Below are positions 30,231 to 48,492 of a stretch of 64,000 bases of DNA, piece after piece. The DNA comes from Acidobacteriota bacterium (GTDB taxonomy: Bacteria; Acidobacteriota; UBA6911; RPQK01; JAJDTT01): contig CBDCJH010000002.1 of assembly GCA_965217775.1 (NCBI GenBank), positions 3,648,001-3,712,000 of the forward strand, read 5' to 3'. Below the pieces are notes generated by a model that saw only the letters and a program-made list of their open reading frames with translations, did no database searches and was not told the origin of the DNA. The first letter of the stretch is position 1. Each line of letters starts with the position of its first letter. The position numbers and the translations under genes are program-made.

Positions 30231-30234
<4 letters not shown>

Positions 30235-32437: not shown

Positions 32438-33373
32438 TCAAGGCTCCTGCTGGAGCCGTTCTTCGATCTGGCTCACGCGGATCACGCCGTGCTCGGCGTC
32501 GTAGGGGAGTCCGCGGGTGGCGGCCACCCGGTCGATGAAGCTCAGGCCCAACGGACCCGCATAGATCTCGGGAGTGCTGAAAGCCGGGTCCTCCAGGGCT
32601 TCCGCCATGGAGATGAAGGAATATCCCCGTTCCTGGAGCATCCGGATCGTGTCCTCCAGGAAACTGGCGGTGGCGATGGCGCAATGGAGCCAGAGAATGT
32701 GGGGGATGTTCCGGCCGAACACCGCCTGGGACTGGGCCTCGCCGTAGTCGACCGCCTCGCCCACATGCGCCAGGTAGATGGCCTTGAGCCTTTCCCGGAC
32801 GGGGTCGTCGTTCTCGACGTCGAGAAAGATCCGGTTGAACCGGCGGTCTCCGGTCTTGATGGTGACCCGGGCAATCTCGTAACTGGCCCGGTAGAGCGCC
32901 TTGGCCACCCGCTTCTTCTTCTTTTCGTTATCCCCTTGGTGGAGGTAGGGGAACCGCAGATAGCGGAATTTGAATCCTCTCCGGGATCTGGCCAGCAGCT
33001 TCAGATACTTCTGGCCGTCGCTCACGTGCTCCAGAAACTCCCTGGCCTTCAACTGGTGAAGATCGACGTGGGCGAAGGTGTGGTTGCCCACGATGTGCCC
33101 CGCGTCCGCCCAGTCCTCCAGCACGACGAAGGTGGCCAAGTCTTCCTGAATGCGCTCCTCCACCACGAAACCGGCCGCAGGAATGTCCTGCCGCTTCAGA
33201 GTGCGCAGGATCATGTTGCTGATTTCCCGGGGCCGCCAGTAGCCCACGGGTCCCAAGACCGGGAGATCGTCGAAGGTCAGAGCGATTTTTCGGTCCGGCT
33301 CGGCAAGTCCGGGAACCGGTAGAAGAAAGATAAGAAGGAGCGGCAAGCCGATTCGCCGGCCGAGTTGCCTCAT
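32438..33373 (-). CDS. Secreted polysaccharide deacetylase (NodB/CE4)
   Basis: Signal peptide, ALTFDDLP, GNHTFAH, RFPYL, IL.LH. Confidence 0.9.
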   Translation of the reverse strand: MRQLGRRIGLPLLLIFLLPVPGLAEPDRKIALTFDDLPVLGPVGYWRPREISNMILRTLKRQDIPAAGFVVEERIQEDLATFVVLEDWADAGHIVGNHTFAHVDLHQLKAREFLEHVSDGQKYLKLLARSRRGFKFRYLRFPYLHQGDNEKKKKRVAKALYRASYEIARVTIKTGDRRFNRIFLDVENDDPVRERLKAIYLAHVGEAVDYGEAQSQAVFGRNIPHILWLHCAIATASFLEDTIRMLQERGYSFISMAEALEDPAFSTPEIYAGPLGLSFIDRVAATRGLPYDAEHGVIRVSQIEERLQQEP

Positions 33374-33397
33374 TTTCCTTTTCCTCCAATCCGGAGG

Positions 33398-34369
33398 TCA
33401 GGAAGTCAGAAGAAGAACCTTGCCTGTGGTCTTCCGTCCCTCCAGCGCCCGATGCGCCGCCTCGGCCTCCGCCAGCGGGTAGGTCGAACCGATGCGCACC
33501 TTCAGATCTCCTTCAGAGTACCACTGGAACAGGTCATCGGCGCGACCCATCAGCTCTTCCCGGGTGAGGGCGTAGTGATTCAGGCTGGGACGCGTCAGGA
33601 AGAGGGACCCCTTCTGGTTCAGGATCTGGGGATCGAAGGAGTCCACAGGCCCACTGGACTGGCCGAAGAGGACCAGGTAGCCCCTGGGCCGCAGGCAGTT
33701 CAGGCTCCTTTCGAAGGTCGTCTTGGCCACCGAGTCGTAGACCACGTTCACTCCGGCCCCGCCGGTCAGGCGGTCCACCTCGACCTGGAAATCCTGCTCC
33801 GTATAGAGGATGGCATGGTCGGCGCCCGCCTGGCGGGCCAGTTCCGCTTTGGCCTCGGTCGAGACCGTCCCGATGACGGAGGCCCCCAGGCGTTTGGCGA
33901 TCTGCACCAGTAGAAGACCGACTCCGCCGGCCGCCGCATGGACCAGAGCCGTGTCGCCCTCGCCCAAGGGGTAGGACCCGTGGGCCAGGTAGTGGGCCGT
34001 GAGACCCTGCACCATGAGGGTGGCCGCGGCCGAAGTGTCCATTTCGTCGGGGAGGACGATCAGTTTCGACGCGTCCACCGCCGCTCGTTGAGCGTAGGAG
34101 CCCAGGGTCATGGCGTAGGAGACCCGATCGCCGGCGCGAATCCCTTCCACCTGAGCACCCACTTCAAGAACGATTCCGGCGCCTTCCACCCCCGGAGTGA
34201 AGGGCACGGGAACCGGATAGTAACCGTACCGATGGTAGGTATCGATGTAGTTGACCCCGGCGACTTCGATCTCCACCAGGGCCTGGGCCGGACCGATCGC
34301 CGGCTCCGGCGTCTCCTCGTACCGGAGGACTTCGGGACCCCCGTTTTCGTTCACACGGATAGCTTTCAT
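33398..34369 (-). CDS. qor: NADPH:quinone oxidoreductase (MDR family)
   Basis: GGPEVL, GVNYID, HAAAGGVG, YDSV, KGSLFLTRPSL, TTGKVLL. Confidence 0.9.
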   Translation of the reverse strand: MKAIRVNENGGPEVLRYEETPEPAIGPAQALVEIEVAGVNYIDTYHRYGYYPVPVPFTPGVEGAGIVLEVGAQVEGIRAGDRVSYAMTLGSYAQRAAVDASKLIVLPDEMDTSAAATLMVQGLTAHYLAHGSYPLGEGDTALVHAAAGGVGLLLVQIAKRLGASVIGTVSTEAKAELARQAGADHAILYTEQDFQVEVDRLTGGAGVNVVYDSVAKTTFERSLNCLRPRGYLVLFGQSSGPVDSFDPQILNQKGSLFLTRPSLNHYALTREELMGRADDLFQWYSEGDLKVRIGSTYPLAEAEAAHRALEGRKTTGKVLLLTS

Positions 34370-34608
34370 AGGCTGATTCCCAGTCAACGGCCCGGATTCC
34401 CATGCTCCACCGAGGTCCCCCTCCGGGCGATCCGGGCTTTAGTGTAAGCGGGAGTATAGCTTCCGGAGAGAAGTGAGGGAAGACGTGGAGTGAGTAACTC
34501 GGGGCAGGCCACGGGGAAAACCGAGGGGGTTGAACCAACCCCGTTTTCCCAAAAACTCCCTCTCCCCTCTTTCCTCTTTCCTCATTCCTCTTTTCTCTTC
34601 TTGGTGTT

Positions 34609-35142
34609 ATGATGCCGAAAAATAAGGTTCGTCAAGTGACTGAAATGAAGGGGATAAAGATGCCAAGAGTGGCCCTGTTCGTTTTGTTGGTCATGTTTCT
34701 GACATTTCCGGCCCTGGGCCAGGATCGCGTCGAAATGACGTCTCCGGTCATCAGGACGACGGTCGAAGACATCATCCTCTCCGTCGACCTCACCGATTTC
34801 TCGGCCGGGAACTCCTACCGGCTCGGATTCGGCACCGCGAAAGGCCAGATCAAGGCCCGTTTGCAATTGGTCAAGGGCACGGAAGACGTGCCCTTCCCGA
34901 AGATGGATTTCGTCCAGGGACACACCAGCACTTGGTGGCAGGTGCCGCAGATCTCCGCCCGCGGCTGGAGCCTGGAGGGAGCCAACCTGCCCAAGGCAGG
35001 CGAACGGCTCACCTTCAGGGTGTTGATCTCCCGCGCCGACGCCAAGGAAATCACCAAGATCTACCTTCTCATCTCACGCAGCTACGGTCCCGATCTCTGG
35101 TACCTGGAAGACGGTGTGGAGATGGATCAATCCATGTGGTGA
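34609..35142 (+). CDS. Hypothetical secreted protein
   Basis: Signal peptide MPRVALFVLLVMFLTFPALG (true start probably 34660); fills the gap between qor and the ligase. Confidence 0.7.
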   Translation: MMPKNKVRQVTEMKGIKMPRVALFVLLVMFLTFPALGQDRVEMTSPVIRTTVEDIILSVDLTDFSAGNSYRLGFGTAKGQIKARLQLVKGTEDVPFPKMDFVQGHTSTWWQVPQISARGWSLEGANLPKAGERLTFRVLISRADAKEITKIYLLISRSYGPDLWYLEDGVEMDQSMW

Positions 35143-35204
35143 GCCGTTTCCATCCCCGATCGGCCGCCCGACCCTGTTTCTCTTGAGTTCCTGAACTTCC
35201 TTCG

Positions 35205-37781
35205 ATGCGGACCCTTCTCGACCTGATCCCCCATCTGCAGGGGCAGGCCGGTGAAGCGGTTCGTTTCGACGACGGCCTGCGCACCCGCATCCTCTCCTAC
35301 CCCGAATTGTGGCGCAATATCGCCTCCTTCGCCTGTCATCTCAGGGAAAGGGGCATCCGGAAGGGAGACCGGCTCCTGCTCTGGGGAGAGAATGGACCGG
35401 AGTGGGTCATCGTCTTCTGGAGTTGCGTATCCCAGGGAGTGCAGGTCGTCCCTGTGGACTCCAATTCCAGCCCGGAGCTGGTGGATCGGATCCAGGACAA
35501 GGTCCAGGCGCGCCTGCTGGTGCACGGCCGGGAGGTCAACCCGGAGACCAGCGTGGAACGCCTGTCGTACCGGGACTTGGCCGCGTTCAAGCCCCGGAGC
35601 GAGACGCTCCCTCAGGTCCGGCTGGAGCCGGACGACCCGGTGGAGATCGTCTTCACCTCCGGCACCACGGGGTCGCCCAAAGGAGTCATCCACCGCCACC
35701 GGAACATCTGCGCCAACCTGACGCCCTTCGCCCGTGAGATCGCCCGCTACCGGAAATATGCCCGACCGTTCCAACCCGTCCGGTTCCTGAATCTGTTGCC
35801 CCTGAGCCACATGTTCGGTCAGTCGGCCGGACTCTTCATTCCCGTCATCCTGGGGGGCGGCGTGGTGTTCATGTCCGAACTCCACCCGGCCGCGATCCTG
35901 GACTGCATCCGCCGACACCGGGTCTCGGTCCTGGTTTCGGTGCCCCGGGTTCTGACCAGTCTGGAGCGGCGGGTCCGCAAGGAGGTCCGGATTCCCGCGG
36001 GGCGGGTGACGAGACGAGGGCTGCCGGGGGTGGCCGCCCGCTGGTGGAAGTACCGGCAGGTGCACCGGACGTTGGGCTGGAAGTTCTGGGCCATCGTGGT
36101 AGGCGGCGCCCGGCTGGAGTTGCGGCAGGAAGAGTGGTGGTCCGAACTTGGGTTCGCGCTGCTTCAGGGGTACGGTCTCACCGAGAGCAGTCCCGTGGTA
36201 GCCGTGAACCACCCCTTTCGACCTCGGCGGGGTGCCTTGGGACGGCCCCTCGCCGGACAGGAGGTCCGGCTGGCTCCGGACGGCGAGATCCTGGTTCGGG
36301 GGGAGAGTGTCGCCACCGAGTACCTGACCTCCAGGAGCGAGACCCGGAAGATCCTGGACCAGGGCTGGTTCCGGACCGGCGACGTGGGCGAGCTGGACGA
36401 GACGGGCGTGCTCTACTACAAGGGCCGCAAGAAGGACCTGATCGTGACGGCCGACGGCCTCAACGTGCACCCCCAGGACGTGGAATCGATCCTGAACCGG
36501 CTTCCGGGCGTTCGGGACAGCGTTGTGGTGCCCGCCCCCAGCCCGGTGGGCGACGTGGTCCACGCGGCCCTGATCCCGGCGGACGGGAAGGCGGACCTGG
36601 CCGAGACGATCCGTCTCGCCAACCGGCGCCTGGAAGCCCACCAGCGAATCCGGGGCTGGTCCGTCTGGCCGGAGGAGGACTTCCCGAGAACCCCGTCGAC
36701 CTGGAAGGTCCGGCGCCATCAGGTGGCCCACCATGTCGCCGAGGGGCAGGCGACGCCTCTCCGGGAGACCGTCTCCCCGGCCCGAGCCATCCTGGCCCAG
36801 CTCACGGGCCGCGACCCACGGCAGATCCGCGGGAACCAGCGCCTGGACGAGGACCTGGGACTGTCCTCCCTGGACCGGGTCGACCTCCTCTCCCGGCTGG
36901 AGGACCGCCGGGAACTGGAGCTCGACGAAGAGGGAATGGCCGGCATCTGCACGGTCCAGGAACTGGAGGCGGCCCTGACCGGTTCGGCGGTGGCCGGCCA
37001 GAGTGCCGCGGAAATAGGAGACGAACGGAGCCCCAGCGCTTCCCCGCTCCCGGACCGAGTCGAGACTCCCCTGCCCTACTGGACCCGCCGGGCGCCCGTC
37101 CGCTGGGCGCGAACCGGCCTGCGGGAAGGCTTCATGATTCCGCTCCTTCGTAACCGGCTTCCTCTGACGGTGGCTGGCACCGATCTGTTGAAGCGGCTCC
37201 GTCCACCGGTGATCTTCGCCGCGAACCACGTCAGCCATCTGGACACGCCGGTGATTCTGGCGGCGCTGCCTCCGTCCTGGCGTCGGCGGCTGGTCCCGGC
37301 CATGGCCCAGGAGTGGTTCCTGCCCCACTTTCGCCCCGGCGGGTTCTCGTGGAGGGAGAGACTCTCCGCCAGCCTCCAGTACGTCCTGGCGTGCGGCTGC
37401 TTCAACGCCTACCCTCTCCCCCAGAGGATGGGGGGGATCCGGCGTAGCCTCCGCTATACGGGCGAGCTCCTGGACCATGGGTTCTGCCCCCTGCTCTTTC
37501 CCGAGGGACGGCGGTCTCCCGACGGCGCTCTCGGGAGCTTCCAGGCCGGAATCGGCCTCATGGGCGTGCGGCTGGAGGTCCCGGTGGTTCCCGTCTACGT
37601 GGAGGGACTGTTCCAGGTGTTCCCGGCCGGCAGCCGATGGCCCAAGAGGGGTCCGGTCGCGGTGACCTTCGGCGAGCCGGTACGGTTGGACCAGGGACAA
37701 GGATACGCCGAGGGGGCTGAAGCGGTGCGGCGGGCCGTCCAGAAGCTGATTCCTAAGGAAACAAGTGACGTCCATGTTTGA
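35205..37781 (+). CDS. AMP-binding acyl ligase - acyl carrier - PlsC-type acyltransferase fusion
   Basis: FTSGTTGSPKG, QGYGLTE, RTGDVG; carrier motif DLGLSSLDRV; NHVSHLD and FPEGRRS. Confidence 0.9.
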   Translation: MRTLLDLIPHLQGQAGEAVRFDDGLRTRILSYPELWRNIASFACHLRERGIRKGDRLLLWGENGPEWVIVFWSCVSQGVQVVPVDSNSSPELVDRIQDKVQARLLVHGREVNPETSVERLSYRDLAAFKPRSETLPQVRLEPDDPVEIVFTSGTTGSPKGVIHRHRNICANLTPFAREIARYRKYARPFQPVRFLNLLPLSHMFGQSAGLFIPVILGGGVVFMSELHPAAILDCIRRHRVSVLVSVPRVLTSLERRVRKEVRIPAGRVTRRGLPGVAARWWKYRQVHRTLGWKFWAIVVGGARLELRQEEWWSELGFALLQGYGLTESSPVVAVNHPFRPRRGALGRPLAGQEVRLAPDGEILVRGESVATEYLTSRSETRKILDQGWFRTGDVGELDETGVLYYKGRKKDLIVTADGLNVHPQDVESILNRLPGVRDSVVVPAPSPVGDVVHAALIPADGKADLAETIRLANRRLEAHQRIRGWSVWPEEDFPRTPSTWKVRRHQVAHHVAEGQATPLRETVSPARAILAQLTGRDPRQIRGNQRLDEDLGLSSLDRVDLLSRLEDRRELELDEEGMAGICTVQELEAALTGSAVAGQSAAEIGDERSPSASPLPDRVETPLPYWTRRAPVRWARTGLREGFMIPLLRNRLPLTVAGTDLLKRLRPPVIFAANHVSHLDTPVILAALPPSWRRRLVPAMAQEWFLPHFRPGGFSWRERLSASLQYVLACGCFNAYPLPQRMGGIRRSLRYTGELLDHGFCPLLFPEGRRSPDGALGSFQAGIGLMGVRLEVPVVPVYVEGLFQVFPAGSRWPKRGPVAVTFGEPVRLDQGQGYAEGAEAVRRAVQKLIPKETSDVHV

Positions 37782-37792
37782 ACTGGCGCCCC

Positions 37793-38018
37793 GGGACCGG
37801 CGACTTTCTTGTCGCCGACCGGGAGCGGCGGCTTTCTTGCCGCCGACCAGGGGGGGCAGGGGGGACGGAGTCCCCACTCTACACTTCTCCTCCCTCTACA
37901 CTTCCCGGCCACCAAATCGCATAGCAACACTGAAGAGCAGGCGGCAAGAAAACCGCCTGTCCCAGTGGGCGACAAGAAAGTCGCCCCTCCTAGCAGGCGA
38001 CAAAAATGTCGCCCCACC
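37793..38018. repeat. REP/MITE-like composite palindrome (family 2), copy 1
   Basis: Units GGCG(A/G)CTTTCTTG(T/C)CGCC on the left, inverted GGCGACAAGAAAGTCGCC on the right; internal spacer shared with 60301-60496. Confidence 0.8.
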
Positions 38019-38069
38019 AAGGCCCCTCCCAGGGCCCTGACCCATGTCCCACAAGTAGAGGATAACGAC

Positions 38070-39221
38070 ATGCCAAGAGTCCAAGAGTGCACGCAGCGAG
38101 AGCTTCCCGAGGTCATCGGTCTGGTGGACGACGCCATGCGCCAGGGCATGGACCAGACCATGCTCACCGACTACCCCCTGGTCTACCAGGAGAGCAACCA
38201 TCCCAACATCCGTGTCATCAAGGTGGCCGGCCGGGTGGTGAGCGTGGTTCCCTTCCTGCTCCGCACCGTCGACGTGGAAGACGTCTCCTTCACCATCGGC
38301 ATAATCTCGCCGACGGCGACGGCTCCGGAGCACCGCCACCGGGGATACGGACTCGCCTGCCTCAGGAGCTGCCTGCGGAGCATGGAGGCGATGGGATGCG
38401 ACCTGTCGGTGCTCTGGACCCAGATCGCCACCTTTCCCTTCTACCAGCACGGAGCCTTCGAACCGGTCCGATACCAGGAATGGATCTACAACTGCACCCG
38501 CGAGGACGGCCGCCGTTTCGGGAACCATGGAGAGCGGATCGTGCGCTACGACCCGGCGGCCGGAACTCACCTGGACCGGATCCGGTCCATGCACGAGAAG
38601 GAAGGCTACGGCGTGCGGCGGTCCCGCTCCGAGTGGGAGGCACTCCTCCAGCTTCCCCTGATGCACACCCTGTTGGCCGAAGCGGACGGTTTCGCCACCG
38701 GCTACCTGATCGTCTCCGACGCCGGCAACAAACCGGGCCTCATCGAAGCGGGCGGCAGCGTGGAGGCCGTCGAGACCCTGTATTCGCACGCCCTTCGCAA
38801 CTTGCCGGAGGGCGGCCAGATCCAATCCTACGACCCCCTCACCGGCTCGACGGCGGGGCGCCTGCTGGAGCAGAAGCTTCCCGGACGGCGGCAACTGACC
38901 ACCAAGTCCATGATGATCCGCATCAACTGCCCCGCGGCATTCCTGCGCAAGATCCGCCCCTGGCTGGAGCGTCAGACGGGATCCGGCGGGGAAGAGTTCT
39001 CGATCGGGGTCACCGACGCCGCCGAGCAGATCAGCTTCCGCTCCACCAAGGAAGGTCTGATCCTAGGGCAGGAGCCGCTGGAGCGGCACTACGAGCTGTC
39101 GAGACGGGAGCTGACGTCGCTGGTCTTCGGTCCGCATCCGGTTCGTGGCGAAGAGGCCACCGGGATCGAAACGCCGCCGTTCCCCTTCTACTTCCCGCTG
39201 TGGCAACTGGACCAGAGCTGA
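38070..39221 (+). CDS. Eis-like GNAT acetyltransferase
   Basis: ATAPEHRHRGYG acetyl-CoA motif, FYQHGAF; ATG 38070 after GAGGA (the upstream extension in the ORF track is repeat-derived). Confidence 0.82.
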   Translation: MPRVQECTQRELPEVIGLVDDAMRQGMDQTMLTDYPLVYQESNHPNIRVIKVAGRVVSVVPFLLRTVDVEDVSFTIGIISPTATAPEHRHRGYGLACLRSCLRSMEAMGCDLSVLWTQIATFPFYQHGAFEPVRYQEWIYNCTREDGRRFGNHGERIVRYDPAAGTHLDRIRSMHEKEGYGVRRSRSEWEALLQLPLMHTLLAEADGFATGYLIVSDAGNKPGLIEAGGSVEAVETLYSHALRNLPEGGQIQSYDPLTGSTAGRLLEQKLPGRRQLTTKSMMIRINCPAAFLRKIRPWLERQTGSGGEEFSIGVTDAAEQISFRSTKEGLILGQEPLERHYELSRRELTSLVFGPHPVRGEEATGIETPPFPFYFPLWQLDQS

Positions 39222-39283
39222 CAAGCTCGCGTCGCTGTCCGGGTCGCCAAAATCGTCGATCCCGGGGAAAACATCCAAAGGAT

Positions 39284-40105
39284 TCAAGGAGCAATGGTCC
39301 GGGCCACCCGGATGCCGATGCCGAAGGTCCCGCCGGTCGTGTACCCGAGGCGGTACGCGGAGCGCAGGGACCCGGGGTCGCTGACCAGGGAGCCGCCGCG
39401 CATGACGCGCAGGGAACAGTCCCCACGCTCCCACGCCGTTCCGTCCGCCGGCGCTTCCCGGTAACTCTCGTTCCAACAGTCCAGTGTCCACTCCCACACG
39501 TTCCCGTGCACGTCATGCAGGCCCCATCCGTTCGGTGCGAAGGATCCCACCGGCGCCGTCCGCCGATCGTCCCATCGGCTGCCGCAGCCCCGGCAGTTCG
39601 CGCGGTTGCGGCCGATCCCGTTCCCCCAACTGTACGCCGTCGCCGTCCCCGCCCGCGCCGCATACTCCCACTCCACCTCGCTCGGCAGCCGGTACCGCCG
39701 TCCCGTCTCAGCCGACAGCCACTTCGTATACGCCACCGCGTCCGCCCAAGACACGTTGATCACCGGACGCCGCCCCCGGCCCCAGCCTTCGTCCTCCGCG
39801 CGCGCCCGGCCGGTCGCTTCCGTGAACCGGTCGTATTCCTCGAACGTCACCTCGTATCCGGACAGCTCGAACGCCTCCACCCTCACCTCATGCACCGGAT
39901 GCTCCCAGTCGACGCAGTCTTTATCCGAGACGCAGCCCATCCGGAAACTACCCCCGGGAATCTCCACCATCTCCGGCTCGTACGGCAGCCGTTCCGGCGC
40001 CCGAGGTTGGACGCGCTGTCTCCCCCCGGCATCCGCCCCGGGGCAGGTCAACAGGAGAATAACGACGACACTGAAGATCAGTCCGGGCATTTGGGATCGC
40101 TCCAC
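39284..40105 (-). CDS. Secreted FGE-sulfatase (SUMF1/CLec-fold) protein, putative DGR target 2
   Basis: Signal-like N-terminus; EVTFEEY, RPVINVSW, RLPSEVEWEYAAR, GLHDVHGNVWEW, RVMRGGS..GIRVAR. Confidence 0.88.
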   Translation of the reverse strand: MERSQMPGLIFSVVVILLLTCPGADAGGRQRVQPRAPERLPYEPEMVEIPGGSFRMGCVSDKDCVDWEHPVHEVRVEAFELSGYEVTFEEYDRFTEATGRARAEDEGWGRGRRPVINVSWADAVAYTKWLSAETGRRYRLPSEVEWEYAARAGTATAYSWGNGIGRNRANCRGCGSRWDDRRTAPVGSFAPNGWGLHDVHGNVWEWTLDCWNESYREAPADGTAWERGDCSLRVMRGGSLVSDPGSLRSAYRLGYTTGGTFGIGIRVARTIAP

Positions 40106-40144
40106 GTCAAGACCCGTGCCGGCAAGGTTTGGGCGCCACTCATC

Positions 40145-40390
40145 TTACCGTTCCGGCCGAAGGATTTGGTGCTCCAGGTTGGCCGCGGCCAGGGCAGTGC
40201 CCCGGTGCCTTGTGTAGGTTGCCTCGATCAGCCGCTCCGGAACATCCAGAACTGACGTCGGGATCCGGTCCCCCAGCAGGAACTTCGGCCGCCGCAGGAA
40301 GCGCTCGACAGTCGGAATCAAGCAGGCGAGGAAACAATCGTGTGACTCCAAAGCGAGGCCGATTTCGCGCGAGCGGTCGGCGCTACGCAT
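40145..40390 (-). pseudogene. avd: Truncated DGR accessory variability determinant
   Basis: ALESH..FLA.LIPTVERF.R..KFLLGDRI....LDV.ERLIEATYT......LAAANL matches the first helices of Avd; similarity stops after AAANL. Confidence 0.8.
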
Positions 40391-40445
40391 ACGTCCCCCG
40401 CCGGGATTCCTCACTCAGTATCTGCCGATCAGCCTCAAGAAAAAA

Positions 40446-40464
40446 CCAGGGGCGCTGCCCCTGG
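40446..40464 (-). promoter_or_regulatory. DGR-type DNA hairpin downstream of the variable region
   Basis: CCAGGGGC-AGC-GCCCCTGG (8-bp stem, 3-nt loop) about 30 nt after the target 1 stop; followed by a T-run, so it could also act as a terminator. Confidence 0.7.
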
Positions 40465-40493
40465 ACCCCCTTAAGAGGTAAAGATCTAAAGAT

Positions 40494-42368
40494 TTAAGGG
40501 GTAACGGTCCGGGCCACGCGGAACCCGATGAGGTGGAGCCGGAACGTGGTGGTGTCCCTGTAGCGGTTCGCGGAGCGCAGGTTCCTGGGTTCGCCGTACC
40601 AAGACCCGCCGCGCAAGACGCGCTGGGAACAGTCCCCGCTCTCCCACGCCGAGCCGTTTGTCGGCGCTCCTTGGTAACTCTCGTTCCAACAGTCCTGCAC
40701 CCATTCCCGCACGTTCCCATGCATGTCGTGCAGGCCCCAGCCGTTGGGACCGAACGATCCCACCGGCGCCGTCTGTGCGTTGTCCCATCGACTGCCGCAA
40801 CCATCGCAGTTAGCCCGGTTGCGGCCGATCTCATTTCCCCAACTGTACGCCGTCACCGATCCCGCCCGCGCCGCATACTCCCACTCCGCCTCGCTCGGCA
40901 ACCGGTACCGCTCCCCCGTCTGACCCGACAACCACCTCACATACGCCACCGCGTCCTCCCACGAAACCATGATCACCGGACGACGCCCACGGCCCCAGCC
41001 TGCGTCGTCCGCCGGCTCCCGGCCCGTCGCCGCCGTGAATCGATCGTACTCCTCGAACGTCACCTCGTATTTGGACAGCTCGAACCTTCCGACCCGAACC
41101 GTATGCACCGGGTGCTCGGTCTGAAAGCAGTCCTGACCCGAGACGCAACCCATCCGGAAGCTCCCCCCAGGGATCACTGCCATCTCCGGACGAATCGGGT
41201 CCACCTTGCTACGATCGTAGGGGTTGCTGCGGTCATAAGTGACTGAACTCTCGTTTCCTCCTCCCGGATTGATGGTCCAAGTCCCGTCCTTTTTGCCCTC
41301 CACATACGACCCTTGTTCCACGATCTGGCCGTCATTGTTGCGCTTTACCCAACGGCCGTGTTTCTTGCCTTCGACGTAGATCCCCTTCCAGTCCCCCTCG
41401 GACCAGACACCGTGCTTTTGGGCCGCCACGTACGACCCTTCCGACACCTTCCCCTCTGCTGTCCGCTGAGTGGACTGGCCCTGTTTCTTCCCTTCCACAA
41501 AGGAGACTTCCCACGTGTCTCCGCCCACGTTCCGGCCTGCCACTTGGCCATGCATCTTGCCGTCCACGTACGGCCTTTTCTCTATGGACCCGTCTGTCCA
41601 CCGGGCTGTCCACAAACCTTGCATTTTGCCTTCCACATAGGGTCCTTCCATCTGGTTCCCGGACAAGTTGCCGTCGTCATCTGCCCACTGGATGACCCAC
41701 TTTCCCTGCCGTTTCCCCTGCTCATACGGCCCTTCATAGACATGTCCATTCCAAGACCGGATCCTCCACCTGCCGTGGCGCTTACCGGACTCGAGTCGGC
41801 CAGATGATTCCGTGGTCTTCTTGCCCCCGTCGCTGACCCATTTCAGGGTGCCCGTGCCTTGCGCCAGACTCTCGGCACACTCGGCTGTCCAGGTCACCGT
41901 CTGGTCCGGCACAGGATCATCAACCCAGACGTGGCAGCCCGGCTGGTTGGCCAGTTCCTTCCAGCATTCGGAACCCTTCGGCTTGCCTTGGCACGTCTGG
42001 GTGGCGTTGAAGGTTTGCGCTTCGGCGGCGTTGAGCAACTCCAGGGCTTCGATGTACTGTTTCCCGTCGCGTCCGACAATTTCCAAATAGCGTGTCACCA
42101 TCCGGACCGCCCGGGCGGGACGGCCGGTCTGCTGCGCCGTTTGGGCGCTTCGAAAATAGAATTCTTCCGGAAGCTTCAGCCCCTTTTCCGCTTCCAGCAA
42201 ACTCATCTTGTCGAGCGCCGTTTGCGCCGCAGTGAAGTCCTGCCGCTCGATCGCTTGCCGAGCGGCCAGCAGGTAGCGATCCGCTTGGATCTCGGGCGGA
42301 AGCTGGGCGGCCGCCGGGGTCATCCCCAAAAAGACGATTACGACAACGTTCCGGAGAACTCTCGACAT
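40494..42368 (-). CDS. Secreted TPR-like + MORN-like repeat + FGE-sulfatase/CLec protein, putative DGR target 1
   Basis: Signal peptide, helical N-domain, repeated G.YVEGKK.G.W units, C-terminal RLPSEAEWEYAAR...RVLRGGSW...GFRVART. Confidence 0.9.
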   Translation of the reverse strand: MSRVLRNVVVIVFLGMTPAAAQLPPEIQADRYLLAARQAIERQDFTAAQTALDKMSLLEAEKGLKLPEEFYFRSAQTAQQTGRPARAVRMVTRYLEIVGRDGKQYIEALELLNAAEAQTFNATQTCQGKPKGSECWKELANQPGCHVWVDDPVPDQTVTWTAECAESLAQGTGTLKWVSDGGKKTTESSGRLESGKRHGRWRIRSWNGHVYEGPYEQGKRQGKWVIQWADDDGNLSGNQMEGPYVEGKMQGLWTARWTDGSIEKRPYVDGKMHGQVAGRNVGGDTWEVSFVEGKKQGQSTQRTAEGKVSEGSYVAAQKHGVWSEGDWKGIYVEGKKHGRWVKRNNDGQIVEQGSYVEGKKDGTWTINPGGGNESSVTYDRSNPYDRSKVDPIRPEMAVIPGGSFRMGCVSGQDCFQTEHPVHTVRVGRFELSKYEVTFEEYDRFTAATGREPADDAGWGRGRRPVIMVSWEDAVAYVRWLSGQTGERYRLPSEAEWEYAARAGSVTAYSWGNEIGRNRANCDGCGSRWDNAQTAPVGSFGPNGWGLHDMHGNVREWVQDCWNESYQGAPTNGSAWESGDCSQRVLRGGSWYGEPRNLRSANRYRDTTTFRLHLIGFRVARTVTP

Positions 42369-42889
42369 GGCCTCTCTCCTGCTTGTTCCGTTCGCGGCGG
42401 TGAGCTTGGGATATCGCCGACTTAGATGCTCGAATTCTGCACGTTCAACCCGCTTCCCGGCGAGAGCTGCGGCAAACGGCGGTTCGGATTCCGCCAGTCC
42501 TCACTAACGTTTCAACCCTTTATGGTAGGGTTTGGCCAAGTCAGTGGTCGTCACGATTCCTCGATCCGGAATCCCAGGATCCGACGGCTTCGGGTACCAT
42601 GGACCGTTGCGCCTGACGCTGGAAGAAAGCTGCCCGACACCCGAACTCGCAGACAGGCTCGTAGAGTGTCAATGAATGCCGTCAGATGGATCGAACAAGA
42701 TACACAGAATCAACTCTAACACAAGAGAGTGGTATTAGTGTGAAAATAAGAGTATATAAGGTGTAAAATACGTGAAGCAATCAACTATTGCCATTGGCCG
42801 CAGAGCGCGGCGCATCCGGGTCCTGCGTCGAACCGACGCCTGGGGACGCTGAACCGCGCCTCGCTCCGGGGTGCGACGAGATTGGAAAA

Positions 42890-45232
42890 TTGAAGAGTCC
42901 CGAAGAACTGAGACGAGAGAACGAGGTGCTGCGGAACCGCATCTCCAAGCTGAGTGAGGCCAGTCTGCGCATCAGCGCGAGCCTCGAGGTCAGCACCGTC
43001 CTGCGTGAGGTGGTGGAACGCGCCCGCGCGCTGACCGGCGCTCGCTACGGCGGGATTGCGACCATGGACGACTCCGGGCAGTGCGAGGAATTCGTCACCT
43101 CCGGCTTCACCCGCGCCGAGCACCGGCAGATGACAGCCTGGCCGGACGCCTCACGGCTCTTCAAACACTTTCGAGACCTTCCGGGAGTGCTGAGAACCCG
43201 GGAGCTGCACAGCTACGTCCGGTCGCACGGTTTCTCCGCGGACCTGGTGCCGTCGAAGTCCTTCCAGGGGACGCCGATGCATCATCGAGGCTCGCATGTG
43301 GGCAACTTCTTTGTCTGCGGGAAGGAAGACGGGCCGGAGTTCACAAGCGAGGACGAAGAGGTCCTGTTGATATTCGCTGCGCAGGCAGCGACGGCGATCG
43401 CCAATGCCCGAACGCATCGGGACGAACAGCGGGCTCGGGCCGACCTGGAGGTCCTGATCGACACCTCGCCGGTGGGCGTGGTGGTCATGGAGGCCAGAAC
43501 CGTCAAGCCGATATCGTTCAATCGGGAGGCGATGCGGATCGTGGAAGGTCTGCGCACACCGGGTCAATCTCCGGAGCAGTTGCTGGAGGTCGTGACCTGC
43601 CGGTTCGGCGACGGGCGGGAGTTCTCCGCGAGAGATTTCGCGTTGGGAAAAGAGCTGCGCAACGCGACTCAGGTACGCGCCGGGGAGATCGTCCTCCGGG
43701 TCCCCGACGGCCGGAGTGTCACGACGCTGTTCAACGCCTCGCCGGTCCGTTCCGAGGACGGCACGGTCGAGTCCGTGATCGTCACCCTTCAGGACTTGGC
43801 TCCTCTGAAGGAGCTGGAGCAGTTGCGGGCCGAGTTCCTGGGTATGGTGAGCCACGAACTACGGGTTCCGCTGACCTCCATCAAGGGCTCGGCCGCCACC
43901 GCGCTGCGGGCGTCGCCGACGCCGGACCCGGCCGTAGTGCAGCAGTTCCTCCGCATCATCGATGACCAGGCCGATCACATGCACAGCCTGATCGACGATC
44001 TGCTGGATGCGGGTCGCATCGAGGCGGGCACGCTGGCGGTCGGCCCCGAGCCGACGGAGGTGGCCCGCTTGGTGGAACAGGCCAGGAACATGTTCCTGAG
44101 TGGAGAAGGCCGGCACACCGTCCGGATCGACCTGCCGCCGGATCTGCCCCGTGTGATGGCCGACCGCGGCCGCATCGTCCAGGTGTTGACCAACCTCCTG
44201 TCCAACGCGGCCCGGCACTCGCCCGAGTCATCCCCCATCCGGGTTGCCGCGGAGCGGGAGGGCGTTCACGTGGCGATCTCGGTCTCCGACAAAGGCCAAG
44301 GGGTGCCGCTGGATCAGTTGCCGCACCTGTTCCGGAAGTACTCGCGTAGCGGCGGCGATCGCGGGATCAGGGGGACCGGTCTGGGTCTGGCCATCTGCAA
44401 GGGTCTGGTGGAGGCCCACGGGGGGCGCATCCGCGCCGAGAGTGGCGGGGCGGGCCTGGGCACGCGGTTCACCTTCACGATTCCGGTGGCGGAGGACGCC
44501 GCGCCCGGCCTCGCCCGGAGCTCTTCGCGCCCGCCTCGGGAAGAGGGGGAGCGAACCCGCATCCTGGTGGTGGACGACGACCCGCAGACACTCCGCTACG
44601 TTCGCGACGCGCTCGAGGCGGCCGGCTATTCCCCTCTCGTGACGGGCGACCCAGGGAAGGTGTCCCGCCTCATCAAGGAGAAACAACCCCGGCTGGCTCT
44701 GTTGGACCTGATCTTGCCCGGGACCGATGGAATCGAGTTGATGGAGCGCCTCCCCGAGCTGGCCGATCTGCCCGTCATCTTCATCTCCGGATACGGCCGG
44801 GACGAGACGATCGCCCGGGCCCTGGAGGTCGGGGCGGCCGATTACATCGTCAAACCCTTCTCGCCGACGGAATTGGTCGCGAGAGTCCAAGCGGCCCTGC
44901 GCCGGCGCGACGAGCTGCCCGAACCCTTCCGCTCGGGGGACCTGTCCATCCACTACGAGGACCGCCAGGTGGCCGTCGCCGGCCGTCCGGTCCGGTTGAC
45001 GGCCACCGAATACGAGTTGCTGCGAGTGCTCTCGGTCAACGCGGGACGGATCGTGAAGTACGATTCCCTGCTCCGCCAAGTATGGCGCCGAGGGGATTCC
45101 GGCGACCATCGGCGGGTGCGCGCCTTCGTGAAGATGCTCCGCCGCAAGCTGGGCGATAATGCGGCCAGCCCGACCTATATCTTTACCGAGCGCCAAGTCG
45201 GCTACCGGATGGCTCGCCCCAGCGACCTTTGA
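42890..45232 (+). CDS. Hybrid sensor kinase/response regulator: GAF-PAS-HisKA-HATPase-REC-winged helix
   Basis: SHELRVPLT, NLLSNA, D.GQG, GTGLGL, ILVVDDD, KPFSPTEL, LTATEYELL, GYRM; TTG start supported by the paralog at 63395. Confidence 0.93.
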   Translation: MKSPEELRRENEVLRNRISKLSEASLRISASLEVSTVLREVVERARALTGARYGGIATMDDSGQCEEFVTSGFTRAEHRQMTAWPDASRLFKHFRDLPGVLRTRELHSYVRSHGFSADLVPSKSFQGTPMHHRGSHVGNFFVCGKEDGPEFTSEDEEVLLIFAAQAATAIANARTHRDEQRARADLEVLIDTSPVGVVVMEARTVKPISFNREAMRIVEGLRTPGQSPEQLLEVVTCRFGDGREFSARDFALGKELRNATQVRAGEIVLRVPDGRSVTTLFNASPVRSEDGTVESVIVTLQDLAPLKELEQLRAEFLGMVSHELRVPLTSIKGSAATALRASPTPDPAVVQQFLRIIDDQADHMHSLIDDLLDAGRIEAGTLAVGPEPTEVARLVEQARNMFLSGEGRHTVRIDLPPDLPRVMADRGRIVQVLTNLLSNAARHSPESSPIRVAAEREGVHVAISVSDKGQGVPLDQLPHLFRKYSRSGGDRGIRGTGLGLAICKGLVEAHGGRIRAESGGAGLGTRFTFTIPVAEDAAPGLARSSSRPPREEGERTRILVVDDDPQTLRYVRDALEAAGYSPLVTGDPGKVSRLIKEKQPRLALLDLILPGTDGIELMERLPELADLPVIFISGYGRDETIARALEVGAADYIVKPFSPTELVARVQAALRRRDELPEPFRSGDLSIHYEDRQVAVAGRPVRLTATEYELLRVLSVNAGRIVKYDSLLRQVWRRGDSGDHRRVRAFVKMLRRKLGDNAASPTYIFTERQVGYRMARPSDL

Positions 45233-45349
45233 GGGAGGGCCCCGACATTCCTGGTCAGGCTGCGGAAGATAAGGCGAAACAGTGAAGAGGCGCTTTCACC
45301 AGCTCGATATTGGAATCCCGTAATCTCGTCCACCCGGCACCTCCGGCCG

Positions 45350-46243
45350 TCACCTCCGCTTCACCTGACGGGCAATCTCGGGCAGGCTGGCCAGCACCAC
45401 GGCGCCGACCATTTCCAGGTTGGGTCCGGAGAGCTTGTCGAGCGTGTCCGACGGCTTGTGCCAATGGGCGTAGTTGAGGTCGATGAGGTCCACGGCAGGG
45501 ATCCCGGCGCGGAGGAAGGGGAGGTGATCGTCGTCGATGGGGGAAGTGCGTCCCGAGGGCCGGAAGATTCGTTGGTGCCCCAGCCGCGAGCCCTGTTCCC
45601 AGATGATCTTGGTCAACCAAGGAGTGGAGTTCGGTTCCCGGAAGATCCGCAGGTCCTTTCCGCCCACCAGGTCCAACAGGATCATGGCGCCGACGTTGCG
45701 CAGGTTCCCCCGGTCCCCCTCCCGCTTCACGAACTCCCGGCTGCCGTACAGGCTGTCGGCGGAGGTCCAGGTTCCCAGCGCCTCCTCTCCGTCGAAGAAG
45801 ACGAACCAGAAGGTGAGATCGGTGGGGTTGTCCTGGAACAGCACGCGGGCCAACTCCAGGAGCAGGCCGGTACTGGACGCGCCGTCGTTGGCCCCCACGA
45901 ACTCGAAGGTGTCGAAGAACTTGCTGTCGTAGTGGCTGGCCAGGATCAGAACCTTCTCATCGCGGCCGGGAAGAATGCCCCGGATGTTGGTCATAGGCAG
46001 GCGCCCCCGGGGCGTGACCGGACGAAAGGTGTGGGTGTCCACCTGGAGGCCCAGGGCTTCCAGTTGCCCGGCGATGTACTCGCCCACCTTCCGCTGGGCC
46101 TCGGTTCCGGGCGGATGGGGACCGTGGCGCACCATCTCCCGGGTGTGGCGGAGGACCTGAAGGCCGTCGACGCCGGCTCCCTGGCCGCAGCAGACGGCCA
46201 GCGCCAGCAGAGTGAGGAGGCGGATGAAGAGTCCCTTGGACAT
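45350..46243 (-). CDS. M28-family peptidase / glutaminyl cyclase-like exported protein
   Basis: SHYDSK, GANDGASS, FFDGEEA, LDLVG, DDHLPF, WH..SDT. Confidence 0.88.
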   Translation of the reverse strand: MSKGLFIRLLTLLALAVCCGQGAGVDGLQVLRHTREMVRHGPHPPGTEAQRKVGEYIAGQLEALGLQVDTHTFRPVTPRGRLPMTNIRGILPGRDEKVLILASHYDSKFFDTFEFVGANDGASSTGLLLELARVLFQDNPTDLTFWFVFFDGEEALGTWTSADSLYGSREFVKREGDRGNLRNVGAMILLDLVGGKDLRIFREPNSTPWLTKIIWEQGSRLGHQRIFRPSGRTSPIDDDHLPFLRAGIPAVDLIDLNYAHWHKPSDTLDKLSGPNLEMVGAVVLASLPEIARQVKRR

Positions 46244-46404
46244 GTTGTCGGGAGATCCGGTGCGAACACTCGGAGCGAGCGCCCGGCTGGTGCGATGGAG
46301 GACCGGCCGGGACACCGCGCCAGCCGAACTCCGTGGCGACTTTCGCCACGGGCTGCTATCCTACATTGCTCAATTTCGTACTATACCCCAGAAAGGAGCC
46401 GTTC

Positions 46405-48492
46405 ATGAAGGTCTACGACAGCAGGGCAATCCGCAACGTCGGCCTGATCGGTCATGGGGATTCCGGCAAGACCACTCTGGCCAGCGCCATGCTCTACTTG
46501 GCCGGGGCGGTGAACCGCCTGGGTCGAGTGGACGACGGGAACACGGTCACCGACTACGACGACGACGAGATTTCCCGGCAGATCACCATCAACACGGCCG
46601 TCGCCCACTGCGAGTGGGGATCCAGCAAGATCAACCTCATCGACACGCCGGGCTATCCGGCTTTCATCCTGGACGCCAAGTCCTCCCTGATGGGGGCCGA
46701 CTCGGCCCTGCTGGTCGTCGATTCCACGGCCGGAGTGGAGGTGCAGTCGGAGAAGGCGTGGGAGTTCGCCGAAGAGCATCGGCTGGCCCGCGCCGTGGTC
46801 TTCAACAAGCTGGACCGGGACCGGGCCGGCTTCGAGAGAAGCCTGGAGTCGGTTCACAAGTCCTTCGGGCGGACGGTGGTGCCGGTGCAGATTCCCATGG
46901 GCGAGGAGGCGTCCTTCCGGGGGATCATCGACTTGATCGGCGAGAAGGCCTACGTCTGCGAAACGGACGGGAGCGGGAATTTCCAGGAAACGGCCATTCC
47001 GGACGAGCTTCAGGAGGAAGCCGAGCAGCGCCGTGAAGAGCTGATCGAGATGGTGGCCGAGAGCGACGACGATCTGATGGAGAAGTACTTCGAGGAGGGC
47101 ACGCTGACCCAGAGCGAGCTGGTGCAGGGGCTGCGCAGCTTCTTCGTGGACCGGTCCATCGTCCCCGCCTTCTGCGTGTCGGCCGGAAAGAACATGGGAG
47201 TGAAGCAGCTCATGGACGCCATGGTGGAGCTCTTCCCCAATCCCTTGGAGAGGACTCCCGTCCCGGGCCTGACGACGGGATCGGAGGAGGAGGAGGAGGT
47301 CGAGCTTTCCATCTCACCGGACGGCCCCGTCACGGCCTACGTCTTCAAGACTCTGGCCGATCCCTTTGCCGGGCGCATCAACCTGGTGAAGGCGATCACC
47401 GGAACCGTCAAATCGGACTCGAACCTGCGCAACCGGACCGCCGAATCCAACGAACGCCTGGGCGCGGTCCACATCCCCCAGGGAAAGAGCTACGAGCCCG
47501 TGCCGGAACTCCGGCCCGGAGACCTGGGCGCGGTGATGAAGCTGAAGAATACCGCCACCGGCGACACCCTTTCGGAACCCTCGGCCCGCAGCATCGTCCG
47601 CAAGGTGGAGTTTCCCGAGGCCGCGATCAGCTTCGCCGTGGAGCCGAAGTCTCGGGGCGACGAAGACAAGATCGGCAACGCCATCGCCCGGGTGATCGAG
47701 GAGGACCCCTCCATCTCGTTCCGCCGCGAAGCCCAGACCAAGGAGTTTCTGCTCTCCGGCACCGGTCAGCTTCACGTGGAGGTGACGGTGGCCAAGCTGG
47801 AGCGCAAGTACGGCGTCCACGTCATTCTGAAGCCGCCCAAGGTGCCCTATCGGGAGACCATCACCGGAAACGCCGACGTCCACGGGCGGCACAAGAAACA
47901 GACCGGCGGACACGGGCAGTTCGGAGACTGCAAGATCCGGATTGAAGGGCTTCCCCGAGGCTCCGGTTTCGAGTTCGAGAACAAGATCTTCGGCGGGTCC
48001 ATCCCCAGGAATTTCATCCCGGCCGTGGAAAAGGGGATCGTGGAGTCGGCGGAGAGGGGGTTCGTGGCCGGGTATCCGGTGGTGGACTTCAAGGTCACCC
48101 TCTATGACGGCAGCTACCATGAAGTGGACTCCTCCGAGATGGCCTTCAAGATCGCCGGGTCGCTGGCCTTCCGCAAGGCCATGGAACGGGCACGGCCGGT
48201 GCTGTTGGAGCCCATCATGAAGGTGGAGGTCTACGTGCCGGAGGAGAACTCGGGCGACATCATGGGCGACCTGAACTCCCGGCGCGGACGGATCCAGGGC
48301 ATGGACATCAAGACCGGCATGCAGGTGGTCCACGCCGAAGTCCCGCTGGCCGAGATGCTCAACTACGCGCCGACACTGACCTCGGTGACGGGAGGACGGG
48401 GCAGCTTCCACATGGAAAAGTCCCACTACGACATCGTTCCGCCGCACTTCGCCGAAAAGGTGATCGAGGAGGCCAAACGGGACAAGAAGTAG
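46405..48492 (+). CDS. fusA: Elongation factor G paralog (EF-G2-like, outside the str operon)
   Basis: GHGDSGKT, RQITI, DTPG, NKLD, HKKQTGGHGQF, YHEVDSSEMAF. Confidence 0.92.
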   Translation: MKVYDSRAIRNVGLIGHGDSGKTTLASAMLYLAGAVNRLGRVDDGNTVTDYDDDEISRQITINTAVAHCEWGSSKINLIDTPGYPAFILDAKSSLMGADSALLVVDSTAGVEVQSEKAWEFAEEHRLARAVVFNKLDRDRAGFERSLESVHKSFGRTVVPVQIPMGEEASFRGIIDLIGEKAYVCETDGSGNFQETAIPDELQEEAEQRREELIEMVAESDDDLMEKYFEEGTLTQSELVQGLRSFFVDRSIVPAFCVSAGKNMGVKQLMDAMVELFPNPLERTPVPGLTTGSEEEEEVELSISPDGPVTAYVFKTLADPFAGRINLVKAITGTVKSDSNLRNRTAESNERLGAVHIPQGKSYEPVPELRPGDLGAVMKLKNTATGDTLSEPSARSIVRKVEFPEAAISFAVEPKSRGDEDKIGNAIARVIEEDPSISFRREAQTKEFLLSGTGQLHVEVTVAKLERKYGVHVILKPPKVPYRETITGNADVHGRHKKQTGGHGQFGDCKIRIEGLPRGSGFEFENKIFGGSIPRNFIPAVEKGIVESAERGFVAGYPVVDFKVTLYDGSYHEVDSSEMAFKIAGSLAFRKAMERARPVLLEPIMKVEVYVPEENSGDIMGDLNSRRGRIQGMDIKTGMQVVHAEVPLAEMLNYAPTLTSVTGGRGSFHMEKSHYDIVPPHFAEKVIEEAKRDKK

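What the first reader, a model, noticed from the sequence alone, without database searches (positions are those of the whole stretch)
39284..42368. Decayed DGR cassette: target gene + hairpin + truncated avd, with a second target where TR-RT should be
Seen: on the minus strand, an FGE/CLec gene ending RVLRGGSW...GFRVART, a CCAGGGGC-AGC-GCCCCTGG hairpin about 30 nt later, an ORF that reads as the N-terminal part of Avd and breaks after AAANL, then directly a second FGE/CLec gene. Established: target(VR)-hairpin-avd-TR-RT is a common DGR order and CLec folds display the VR. Inference: TR and RT were deleted here, leaving an orphan target that keeps its cis homing signals and could be diversified in trans by a DGR elsewhere in the genome. 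Standard annotation would miss this because no RT is present.
Basis: partly seen in the sequence, partly recalled or inferred. Interest (0 to 1): 0.85.

Follow-up and report, generated by a model that had tools for sequence, protein, structure and literature searches.

The report
RT-less DGR target cassette, trans-diversified
This is a broken copy of a bacterial "targeted hypermutation" cassette that kept its target gene and docking signals but lost its enzyme and template, and comparison with related strains suggests the target went on being mutated by an intact copy elsewhere in the genome, a situation already described in another bacterium.

Summary
On the minus strand lie an FGE/C-type-lectin gene with a VR (40494-42368), a GC hairpin plus T-run (40440-40464), an Avd stump cut at codon 80 of 131 (40145-40414) and a second FGE gene (39284-40105).

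- **Insertion, not local loss:** The stump, hairpin, target and a hybrid kinase gene form a 5.2-kb block (40151-45344). Four congeners lack it at this site.
- **Gene 2 is not a target:** It is an old resident gene whose VR-like end is frozen across species. None of the 8 congeners searched has any Avd.
- **Other DGR copies:** The genome holds one complete DGR 1.54 Mb away (avd-RT-TR) and a second decayed copy.
- **TR match:** VR1 matches that TR at every non-adenine site over its 3' 68 nt. It has 6 non-adenine mismatches in its 5' 50 nt.
- **Evidence for trans:** Avd stumps in three other database lineages end at the same junction. Target orthologues differ from this one almost only at adenine-containing template codons, so VR1 was probably diversified in trans after the truncation (about 0.6).

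Whether VR1 is still diversified today is untested. Degenerate DGR loci served in trans are already published (Doré et al. 2024), so this is a new member of a known kind.

The parts
40494..42368 (-). Target gene 1 (624 aa): signal-peptide-like N-terminus, seven ~23-aa repeats, C-terminal FGE-sulfatase (C-type-lectin-type) domain carrying VR1
   Evidence: ORF. Pfam FGE-sulfatase E 2.7e-61. Repeat family D2. Full-length orthologues of 621-626 aa at 79-94% identity.
40507..40627 (-). VR1: 121 nt homologous to the template repeats. The adenine-derived changes lie in about 40528-40598.
   Evidence: blastn to TR at C2:5234603-5234723, 83%. 14 mismatches at TR adenines and 6 at other bases, all 6 within the 5' 50 nt.
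40465..40506 (-). IMH-like block at and after the VR end (includes the stop codon). It is present beside the VRs and absent from the TRs.
   Evidence: Alignments: VR and TR diverge after GTGGCCCG. The block is conserved in the VR loci of DGR A, DGR B and locus C.
40440..40464 (-). GC hairpin (40446-40464, 8 pairs, 3-nt loop) followed by T6 (40440-40445)
   Evidence: It is kept at loci A, B and C, with one compensated pair, and locus A has an added G:C pair.
40145..40414 (-). avd stump (89 aa from the GTG, 81 aa from the ATG at 40390). Homology to avd ends at 40174. The stop codon comes from resident DNA.
   Evidence: Three other database lineages have stumps with the same end.
40151..40173 (-). 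23 nt at the junction that match neither avd nor the congeners' spacer
40151..45344 (.). 5.2-kb block absent from the syntenic site of congeners G002, G003, G004 and G006
   Evidence: In those genomes window 40150 abuts window 45345-45350 across a 33-74 nt spacer (measured in G002 and G006).
42788..45232 (+). Hybrid sensor kinase/response regulator (GAF-PAS-HisKA-HATPase-REC-OmpR type), divergent from target 1 and part of the inserted block
   Evidence: Pfam, NCBIfam.
39284..40105 (-). Gene 2 (273 aa): resident FGE-domain protein. Its VR-like end, 39297-39414, is frozen.
   Evidence: There is no hairpin after it.

Best explanation
The locus is an acceptor-only remnant of a diversity-generating retroelement (DGR). 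It keeps a target gene with its VR, the IMH-like block, the GC hairpin and the first 80 codons of avd. It has no RT, no TR and no working Avd.

The remnant is a diverged paralogue (about 80% nt identity) of the genome's complete DGR cassette. It sits at the left end of a 5.2-kb block that this lineage gained between a resident FGE gene (gene 2) and an M28 peptidase gene. The avd stump is a pseudogene. Gene 2 is a bystander, not a target.

Inferred mechanism: the complete DGR 1.54 Mb away on the same chromosome (avd, RT, TR at C2:5233225-5234723), or its recent ancestor, supplied Avd/RT and adenine-mutagenised TR cDNA in trans. That cDNA homed into VR1 from the IMH/hairpin end, so VR1 kept diversifying after its own machinery was lost.

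Shown: the anatomy, the break points, the insertion, the frozen state of gene 2, the complete DGR elsewhere, and the adenine-codon-restricted differences among orthologues. Inferred: that the orthologues' stumps sit beside their targets, that the diversification came after the truncation, and which element was the donor.
For: 1. Anatomy.
2. Break point: homology to all three paralogous cassettes stops at 40174, and synteny with congeners resumes at 40150.
3. A complete DGR exists in the genome. Its target VR shows 12 adenine and 0 non-adenine mismatches to its TR. Its Avd scores 107 bits. Its RT is 423 aa with IGNLASQ and YVDD.
4. VR1 compared with that TR: the 3' 68 nt carry 9 adenine and 0 non-adenine mismatches. 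This includes positions 80, 102 and 109, where the other strain's TR differs. The chance that all 6 non-adenine mismatches fall in the 5' part is 0.008.
5. The signals 3' of the VR are conserved with the complete element's target. By its abstract, Guo et al. 2011 found that IMH plus hairpin is enough to direct a DGR to a foreign gene.
6. Avd stumps P0122, P0123 and P0124 (82-90% identical to this one) end in the same junction peptide...AAANLE(H/P)QIL(R/W)(P/L)ER. P0124 lies on a contig of the same length (1,645,991) as target orthologue P0002.
7. Target orthologues P0001-P0004 differ from the window's protein at 11-14 of the 17 adenine-containing TR codons and at 0-1 of the 21 other codons (Fisher p 1e-4 to 7e-8). 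Their N-terminal parts differ by only 2.8-14.3%. In the window's protein and P0001-P0005, 70 of the 72 residues at AAC/AAT codons belong to the NNC set.
Against: 1. Against every TR now in the genome, VR1 has 6-10 non-adenine mismatches. It therefore fails the 'perfect match at all non-adenine sites' criterion that Doré et al. used. Two mismatches (positions 46 and 49) are private to the complete DGR's TR and are copied into that DGR's own VR but not into VR1. Two more (positions 22 and 25) are synonymous drift. So VR1's 5' half has not been overwritten recently.
2. Adjacency of stump and target in the other lineages is inferred from protein records and one shared contig length. Their DNA could not be fetched.
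3. The laid public contigs gave no usable picture of VR1, so variation within a population is untested.
4. The hairpin with its T-run also fits a plain terminator.
5. The stretch 3' of the VR is only 77% identical to that of the complete DGR's own target.
Confidence: 0.6

Rival explanations
1. Dead relic. The cassette lost its machinery and VR1 has been frozen ever since. The VR differences among orthologues arose earlier, while a cis DGR was still intact, or entered by recombination with alleles from lineages that still have one.
For: VR1 has six non-adenine mismatches to the best TR, including synonymous drift and the absence of that TR's two private changes. The stump carries helix-breaking substitutions (Q-to-P twice, L-to-P, W-to-C) and evolves about twice as fast as the target's N-terminus: 18% against 8.7% for the P0124/P0002 pair. 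No read-level variation was seen.
Against: The identical junction peptide in four lineages argues for one old truncation that predates their VR differences. A recombination break would have to fall within the roughly 80 nt between VR and stump. The differences are confined to adenine codons even in the closest orthologue, whose N-terminus differs by only 2.8%.
Confidence: 0.27
2. One reading: a whole two-target DGR stood here (target 1 - avd - TR/RT - target 2) and an internal deletion removed avd-3', TR and RT. Both FGE genes are left as orphan targets.
For: The gene order looks like that model. Gene 2's end resembles a TR with many adenine-site changes: 24 of 34 adenines differ.
Against: Gene 2 with its upstream 45 nt is syntenic at 89-91% in four congeners, where it directly abuts the M28 peptidase gene. 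None of the 8 congeners searched has an Avd. Gene 2's VR-like end shows 2.5-4.2% differences against 6.0-8.7% for the rest of the domain. It also has 22 non-adenine differences from the TR, among them a 3-nt gap in the alignment, and no hairpin.
Confidence: 0.08
3. The hairpin is only the intrinsic terminator of the target gene and has no role in homing. Its conservation reflects transcription, not DGR targeting.
For: An 8-bp GC stem followed by T6 meets the terminator scan. The scan found 4 sites against 3.2 expected from shuffles. All four paralogous loci keep the T-run.
Against: The two roles are not exclusive. The hairpin sits where DGR hairpins sit, just after the IMH, and the two avd-distal FGE genes (gene 2 and the 271-aa paralogue) lack it.
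Confidence: 0.15

Closest known systems
'Degenerate' DGR loci of Thiohalocapsa PB-PSB1 (DGR 4 and 5 served by DGR 2), Doré et al. 2024, PNAS, PMC10907252 (passages read)
   Same: One genome holds one complete DGR of a class plus duplicated loci whose key machinery is missing or pseudogenised. Targets at the incomplete loci are proposed to be diversified in trans by the complete one.
   Different: [quoted passage not shown] Here VR1 matches only over its 3' 68 nt, reads were uninformative, and the support is comparative: a shared avd truncation with differing VRs. Transposons drove duplication there. No IS, target-site duplication or inverted repeats flank this block.
Remote (>100 kb) DGR targets, e.g. 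the Treponema DGR with seven non-adjacent targets; Wu et al. 2018, NAR, PMC5758913 (passages read)
   Same: An FGE/C-type-lectin target far from the RT (1.54 Mb here) in a chromosomal DGR that does not appear phage-borne.
   Different: Remote targets were assigned there when only A-to-N differences to the TR were found, and they were not parts of another DGR. This target carries a stump of its own former cassette and has non-adenine mismatches.
BPP-1 target-site requirements (IMH plus hairpin/cruciform), Guo et al. 2011, PLoS Genet, PMC3240598 (abstract and outline read)
   Same: A GC-stem inverted repeat just downstream of the VR and its IMH. Stem structure is kept while the stem sequence varies between copies.
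   Different: The loop is 3 nt and a T-run follows, so the element also looks like a terminator. No function was tested here.

Membership tests
Autonomous DGR (RT + TR + accessory gene + target in one locus) | DGR-type reverse transcriptase in the locus | tested here: not met
   RVT_1 search of the whole genome: 13 matches, none inside the window. The two DGR-type matches are at C2:5233733-5234374 and C1:61188-61826.
Autonomous DGR (RT + TR + accessory gene + target in one locus) | Template repeat next to the VR that differs from it only at adenines | tested here: not met
   No TR-like copy lies within the window. The nearest candidates are 1.54 Mb away or on contig C1.
Autonomous DGR (RT + TR + accessory gene + target in one locus) | Full-length Avd | tested here: not met
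   35.2 bits against an 80-bit cut-off, covering profile positions 9-68 of 104. Homology ends at codon 80 of 131.
Autonomous DGR (RT + TR + accessory gene + target in one locus) | Target protein with a C-terminal VR in an FGE-sulfatase / C-type-lectin-type domain | tested here: met
   Pfam FGE-sulfatase E 2.7e-61, with the VR in the last 45 residues. The fold itself was not modelled.
Trans-served (remote or degenerate-locus) DGR target | A complete DGR of the same class in the same genome | tested here: met
   C2:5232865-5234723 holds a VR, a 131-aa Avd (107 bits), a 423-aa RT with IGNLASQ and YVDD, and a TR. The cognate VR/TR pair shows 12 adenine and 0 non-adenine mismatches.
Trans-served (remote or degenerate-locus) DGR target | [quoted passage not shown] | tested here: not met
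   14 adenine and 6 non-adenine mismatches to the best TR. The feature is met only over the 3' 68 nt, with 9 adenine and 0 non-adenine mismatches.
Trans-served (remote or degenerate-locus) DGR target | IMH and hairpin retained 3' of the VR | tested here: met
   The block is conserved with the three other cassettes at 77-91% over 86-87 nt, and the stem is kept. Function was not tested.
Trans-served (remote or degenerate-locus) DGR target | VR varies at TR-adenine positions among strains or within a population after the cis machinery was lost | tested here: inconclusive
   Among orthologous proteins, 11-14 of 17 adenine codons differ against 0-1 of 21 other codons, and stumps with the same junction occur in other lineages. 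The DNA context of those records could not be fetched, and the laid contigs were uninformative.
Intrinsic (rho-independent) terminator | GC-rich stem-loop followed by a T-run at the end of a gene | tested here: met
   8 pairs, 7 of them G-C, then T6. Termination itself cannot be tested with these tools.

The most novel reading that the evidence does not exclude
Acceptor-only modules (target + IMH + hairpin, with an avd stump as a scar) are copied around this genome without the RT and remain live substrates of one master DGR. The shared avd junction would then act as a natural time-stamp. It would show that a target kept hypermutating in trans across lineages 3-15% apart in protein sequence, possibly still today by partial-length homing that rewrites only the 3' part of the VR.
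Probability: 0.35. Interest if true: 0.5.

Novelty: new member of a known kind. Interest (0 to 1): 0.4.

Why it matters
RT-centred DGR finders miss loci like this one, so the set of hypermutated genes in a genome is under-counted. This case offers a useful handle. The same truncation scar is shared by several lineages whose VRs differ, which could date trans diversification without any experiment. One chromosome also shows a graded series of DGR decay:
- a complete element;
- a copy with a truncated RT and an intact avd;
- this copy with a truncated avd;
- isolated TR fragments.

The principle is already published for Thiohalocapsa, so the value is incremental.

Tried and rejected
- **Public runs:** I laid four runs, all short assembled contigs from mixed communities, with paralogues and TR copies laid on the same stretch. 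No contig covering VR1 was among the rows shown (153 difference rows and 2409 pieces were hidden), so they say nothing about VR1. They did show a junction-spanning piece (X7, 39944-40213, 4 differences) and one VR2 difference (39338) among the 14 differences of a 521-nt X3 contig. Runs X1 and X2 held only small shares.
- **JGI metagenome contigs:** scanned with target 1's N-terminal 389 aa. This gave 11 loci, the best at 38% identity, and no orthologue.
- **Species-representative genomes:** the same query gave 5 loci, the best at 51%, and no orthologue.
- **Repeat search over 39000-46500:** no target-site duplication, terminal inverted repeats or IS ends at the edges of the block.
- **Homologue search with gene 2:** it gave its own 90% cluster (67 members) but no contig-length link to the stump-bearing contigs.
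- **Other TR copies as donor:** the two extra TR-like copies (C2:5225155-5225234, C1:68216-68295) were rejected. They lack the 3' end of the TR and have 7 non-adenine mismatches to VR1.
Full report
**What is there.**

On the minus strand, four features lie in a row.
- A 624-aa gene at 40494-42368 has a C-terminal FGE-sulfatase domain (Pfam E 2.7e-61).
- A stem-loop CCAGGGGC-AGC-GCCCCTGG at 40446-40464 starts 29 nt after that gene's stop and is followed by T6.
- A short ORF at 40145-40414 follows.
- A 273-aa FGE-sulfatase gene lies at 39284-40105.

The short ORF matches NCBIfam DivGenRetAVD at E 1.2e-8, over profile positions 9-68 of 104, at 35 bits against a cut-off of 80. Aligned with the genome's three intact 131-aa Avd proteins it is 67-75% identical up to '...AAANL' (residue 80). 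It then runs into unrelated sequence. It also carries proline and cysteine substitutions at positions that are invariant in the intact copies.

**The rest of the genome.**

The window is C2:3648001-3712000 of a two-contig assembly (C1 144 kb, C2 6.29 Mb).

Searching it with the VR1 stretch gave ten significant matches. An RVT_1 search gave 13 matches. Eleven are uniform ORFs (nine of 526 aa, one of 522, one of 381), probably group-II-intron type, though I did not test that. Two are DGR-type. An Avd search gave four matches.

Together these define four DGR-related places.
- **DGR A, complete, at C2:5232865-5234723.** It has an 885-aa FGE target, the hairpin, a 131-aa Avd, a 423-aa RT with IGNLASQ and YVDD, and a TR at the RT's 3' end. 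Its VR differs from its TR at 12 adenines and at no other base.
- **DGR B on C1.** C1 is collinear with C2:5152009-5303614 at 92-96% identity, with 134,189 of its 144,268 bases covered. It is therefore a second strain's version of the DGR A region, not a plasmid. Its cognate target resembles target 1 but is broken into different reading frames.
- **Locus C at C2:3796355-3801296.** Avd is intact. The RT keeps only its first ~210 of 423 residues, stopping short of where YVDD lies in the complete RT, and there is no TR.
- **The window's cassette.**

Two further TR-like fragments with an RT 3' remnant lie beside ankyrin-repeat genes.

**Break points and origin.**

Homology of the window cassette to loci A, B and C stops at window 40174 in all three comparisons.

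In congeners G006, G002 and G003, window 27811-40150 at most lies directly next to window 45345/45350 onward. The spacer is 73 nt in G006 and 33 nt in G002, and identity is 89-93%. In G004 the peptidase gene's 3' end likewise precedes gene 2.

So window 40151-45344 is a 5.2-kb block that those four species lack at this site. It comprises the avd stump, the hairpin, target 1 and a divergent hybrid kinase/response-regulator gene. The avd break is the block's left edge. The stump's last two codons come from resident DNA, and 23 nt at the junction (40151-40173) match nothing.

No target-site duplication, inverted repeats or IS ends flank the block. None of the 8 congeners searched has any Avd at E 1e-5 or better, so DGRs appear to be a gain of this lineage.

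I cannot tell whether the cassette arrived already truncated or arrived whole and then lost avd-3'/RT/TR in a deletion that reached the edge.

**Gene 2 is a bystander.**

Its orthologues sit at the same site in G006, G002, G003 (where it is 5'-truncated) and G004. Its VR-like end (39297-39414) differs from them at 2.5-4.2% of positions, against 6.0-8.7% for the rest of the FGE domain.

Against the TRs it has 22 non-adenine differences, among them a 3-nt gap in the alignment. No hairpin follows it.

In the laid contigs, a 521-nt piece from another sample had 14 differences, and only one of them (39338) fell in this region.

Gene 2 may be a very old fossil of a DGR target. It is not a target now, and it does not stand 'where TR-RT should be' as the result of a local deletion.

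**Could VR1 be served in trans?**

The cis signals are present. After GTGGCCCG the VR copies share an IMH-like block, the hairpin, the T-run and about 60 nt up to avd. All of this is absent from the TRs. The window's copy is 77% identical to DGR A's over the 87 aligned columns and 91% identical to locus C's. The stem is kept, with one compensated pair, and an extra G:C pair in A.

By its abstract, Guo et al. 2011 found IMH plus hairpin sufficient to retarget a DGR to a foreign gene.

Against DGR A's TR, VR1 has 14 adenine mismatches and 6 non-adenine mismatches. All 6 lie in the 5' 50 nt. The 3' 68 nt have 9 adenine and 0 non-adenine mismatches. The chance that all 6 cluster in this way is 0.008.

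The mismatches count against recent full-length homing. Two (positions 46 and 49) are private changes of TR A that its own VR has copied and VR1 has not. Two (positions 22 and 25) are synonymous.

**Comparative test.**

A protein search with target 1 found full-length orthologues: P0001 (94%), P0002 (89%), P0003 (88%), P0004 (85%), P0005 (83%) and more distant ones.

| Orthologue | N-terminal 392 residues differing | Adenine-containing TR codons differing (of 17) | Other codons differing (of 21) |
|---|---|---|---|
| P0001 | 2.8% | 12 | 0 |
| P0002 | 8.7% | 13 | 0 |
| P0003 | 10.2% | 11 | 1 |
| P0004 | 14.3% | 14 | 0 |

Fisher p ranges from 1e-4 to 7e-8. The ACC/ACG codons show only T, P, S or A. 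The AGG codons show R, W or G. In the window's protein and P0001-P0005, 70 of the 72 residues at AAC/AAT codons belong to the NNC set. This is the DGR signature.

A search with the stump found three other records that end in the same junction peptide...AAANLE(H/P)QIL(R/W)(P/L)ER: P0122 (81 aa, 90% identical), P0123 (81 aa, 88%) and P0124 (90 aa, 82%). P0124's contig has the same length (1,645,991) as P0002's.

One truncation shared by lineages whose VRs differ in the DGR manner implies diversification after the cis RT and TR were gone, which means diversification in trans.

The weak points are these:
- Adjacency in the other lineages rests on protein records only.
- Recombination between alleles cannot be excluded.

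**What is known.**

Doré et al. [quoted passage not shown]

Wu et al. 2018 (passages read) list remote targets more than 100 kb from the RT.

My literature searches turned up no paper that uses a shared truncation scar to date trans activity. Those searches were not exhaustive, and I did not read any supplements.

**Verdict.**

The reading as a decayed cassette is right. The 'second target' and the 'local deletion' parts are wrong or undecided. Trans diversification after the truncation is likely (about 0.6), and present-day activity is unknown.

This is a new member of a known kind. No claim here rests on the unpublished genome G016. Earlier notes of this scan call the organism an acidobacterium, which I did not test.

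Noticed in passing
G000 contig C1 (whole, 144,268 bp) against C2:5152009-5303614: C1 is collinear with this C2 stretch at 92-96% identity, with 134,189 of its 144,268 bases covered. It looks like a second strain or haplotype co-assembled with the genome rather than a plasmid, which may explain the 7.47% contamination figure.
   Followed up: partly
C2:3796355-3801296 (locus L023:4355-9905): A second decayed DGR lies 108 kb from the window's cassette. It has a 603-aa FGE target, the hairpin and an intact 131-aa avd. Its RT keeps only about 210 of 423 residues, stopping short of where YVDD lies in the complete RT, and there is no TR. It also holds a 271-aa FGE gene and, on the opposite strand, a 337-aa ORF homologous to target 1's N-terminus (42% over 347 aa).
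   Followed up: partly
C1:62476-63759 (locus L022:6405-7759): In the second strain, the complete DGR's own adjacent target is a target-1-like gene broken across frames -1 and -3. Its VR carries a 17-nt insertion containing TGA triplets. Its RT, avd and TR look intact, so that DGR may have only remote targets left.
   Followed up: partly
C2:5225155-5225234 and C1:68216-68295: TR-like AAC-rich fragments preceded by an RT 3' remnant and lacking the TR's 3' end. Each lies just downstream of a 627-aa ankyrin-repeat gene.
   Followed up: partly
C2, eleven sites (e.g. 5166638-5167336); one at C2:3645565-3646257, just left of the window: Eleven RVT_1 ORFs of near-uniform length (nine of 526 aa, one of 522, one of 381). 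They are probably a group-II-intron family that has spread through the chromosome.
   Followed up: no
window 42788-43600 and 63320-64000; C2:2620224-2621021; C2:1519226-1520006: The first ~800 nt of the hybrid kinase gene belong to a multi-copy family, 75-80% identical, in this genome and its congeners. Another copy lies at the right end of the window.
   Followed up: no
window 41284-41734: Seven copies of a ~23-codon repeat (spacing 54-87 nt) in target 1's middle part. The paralogous 885-aa target gives a sub-threshold MORN_2 hit.
   Followed up: no
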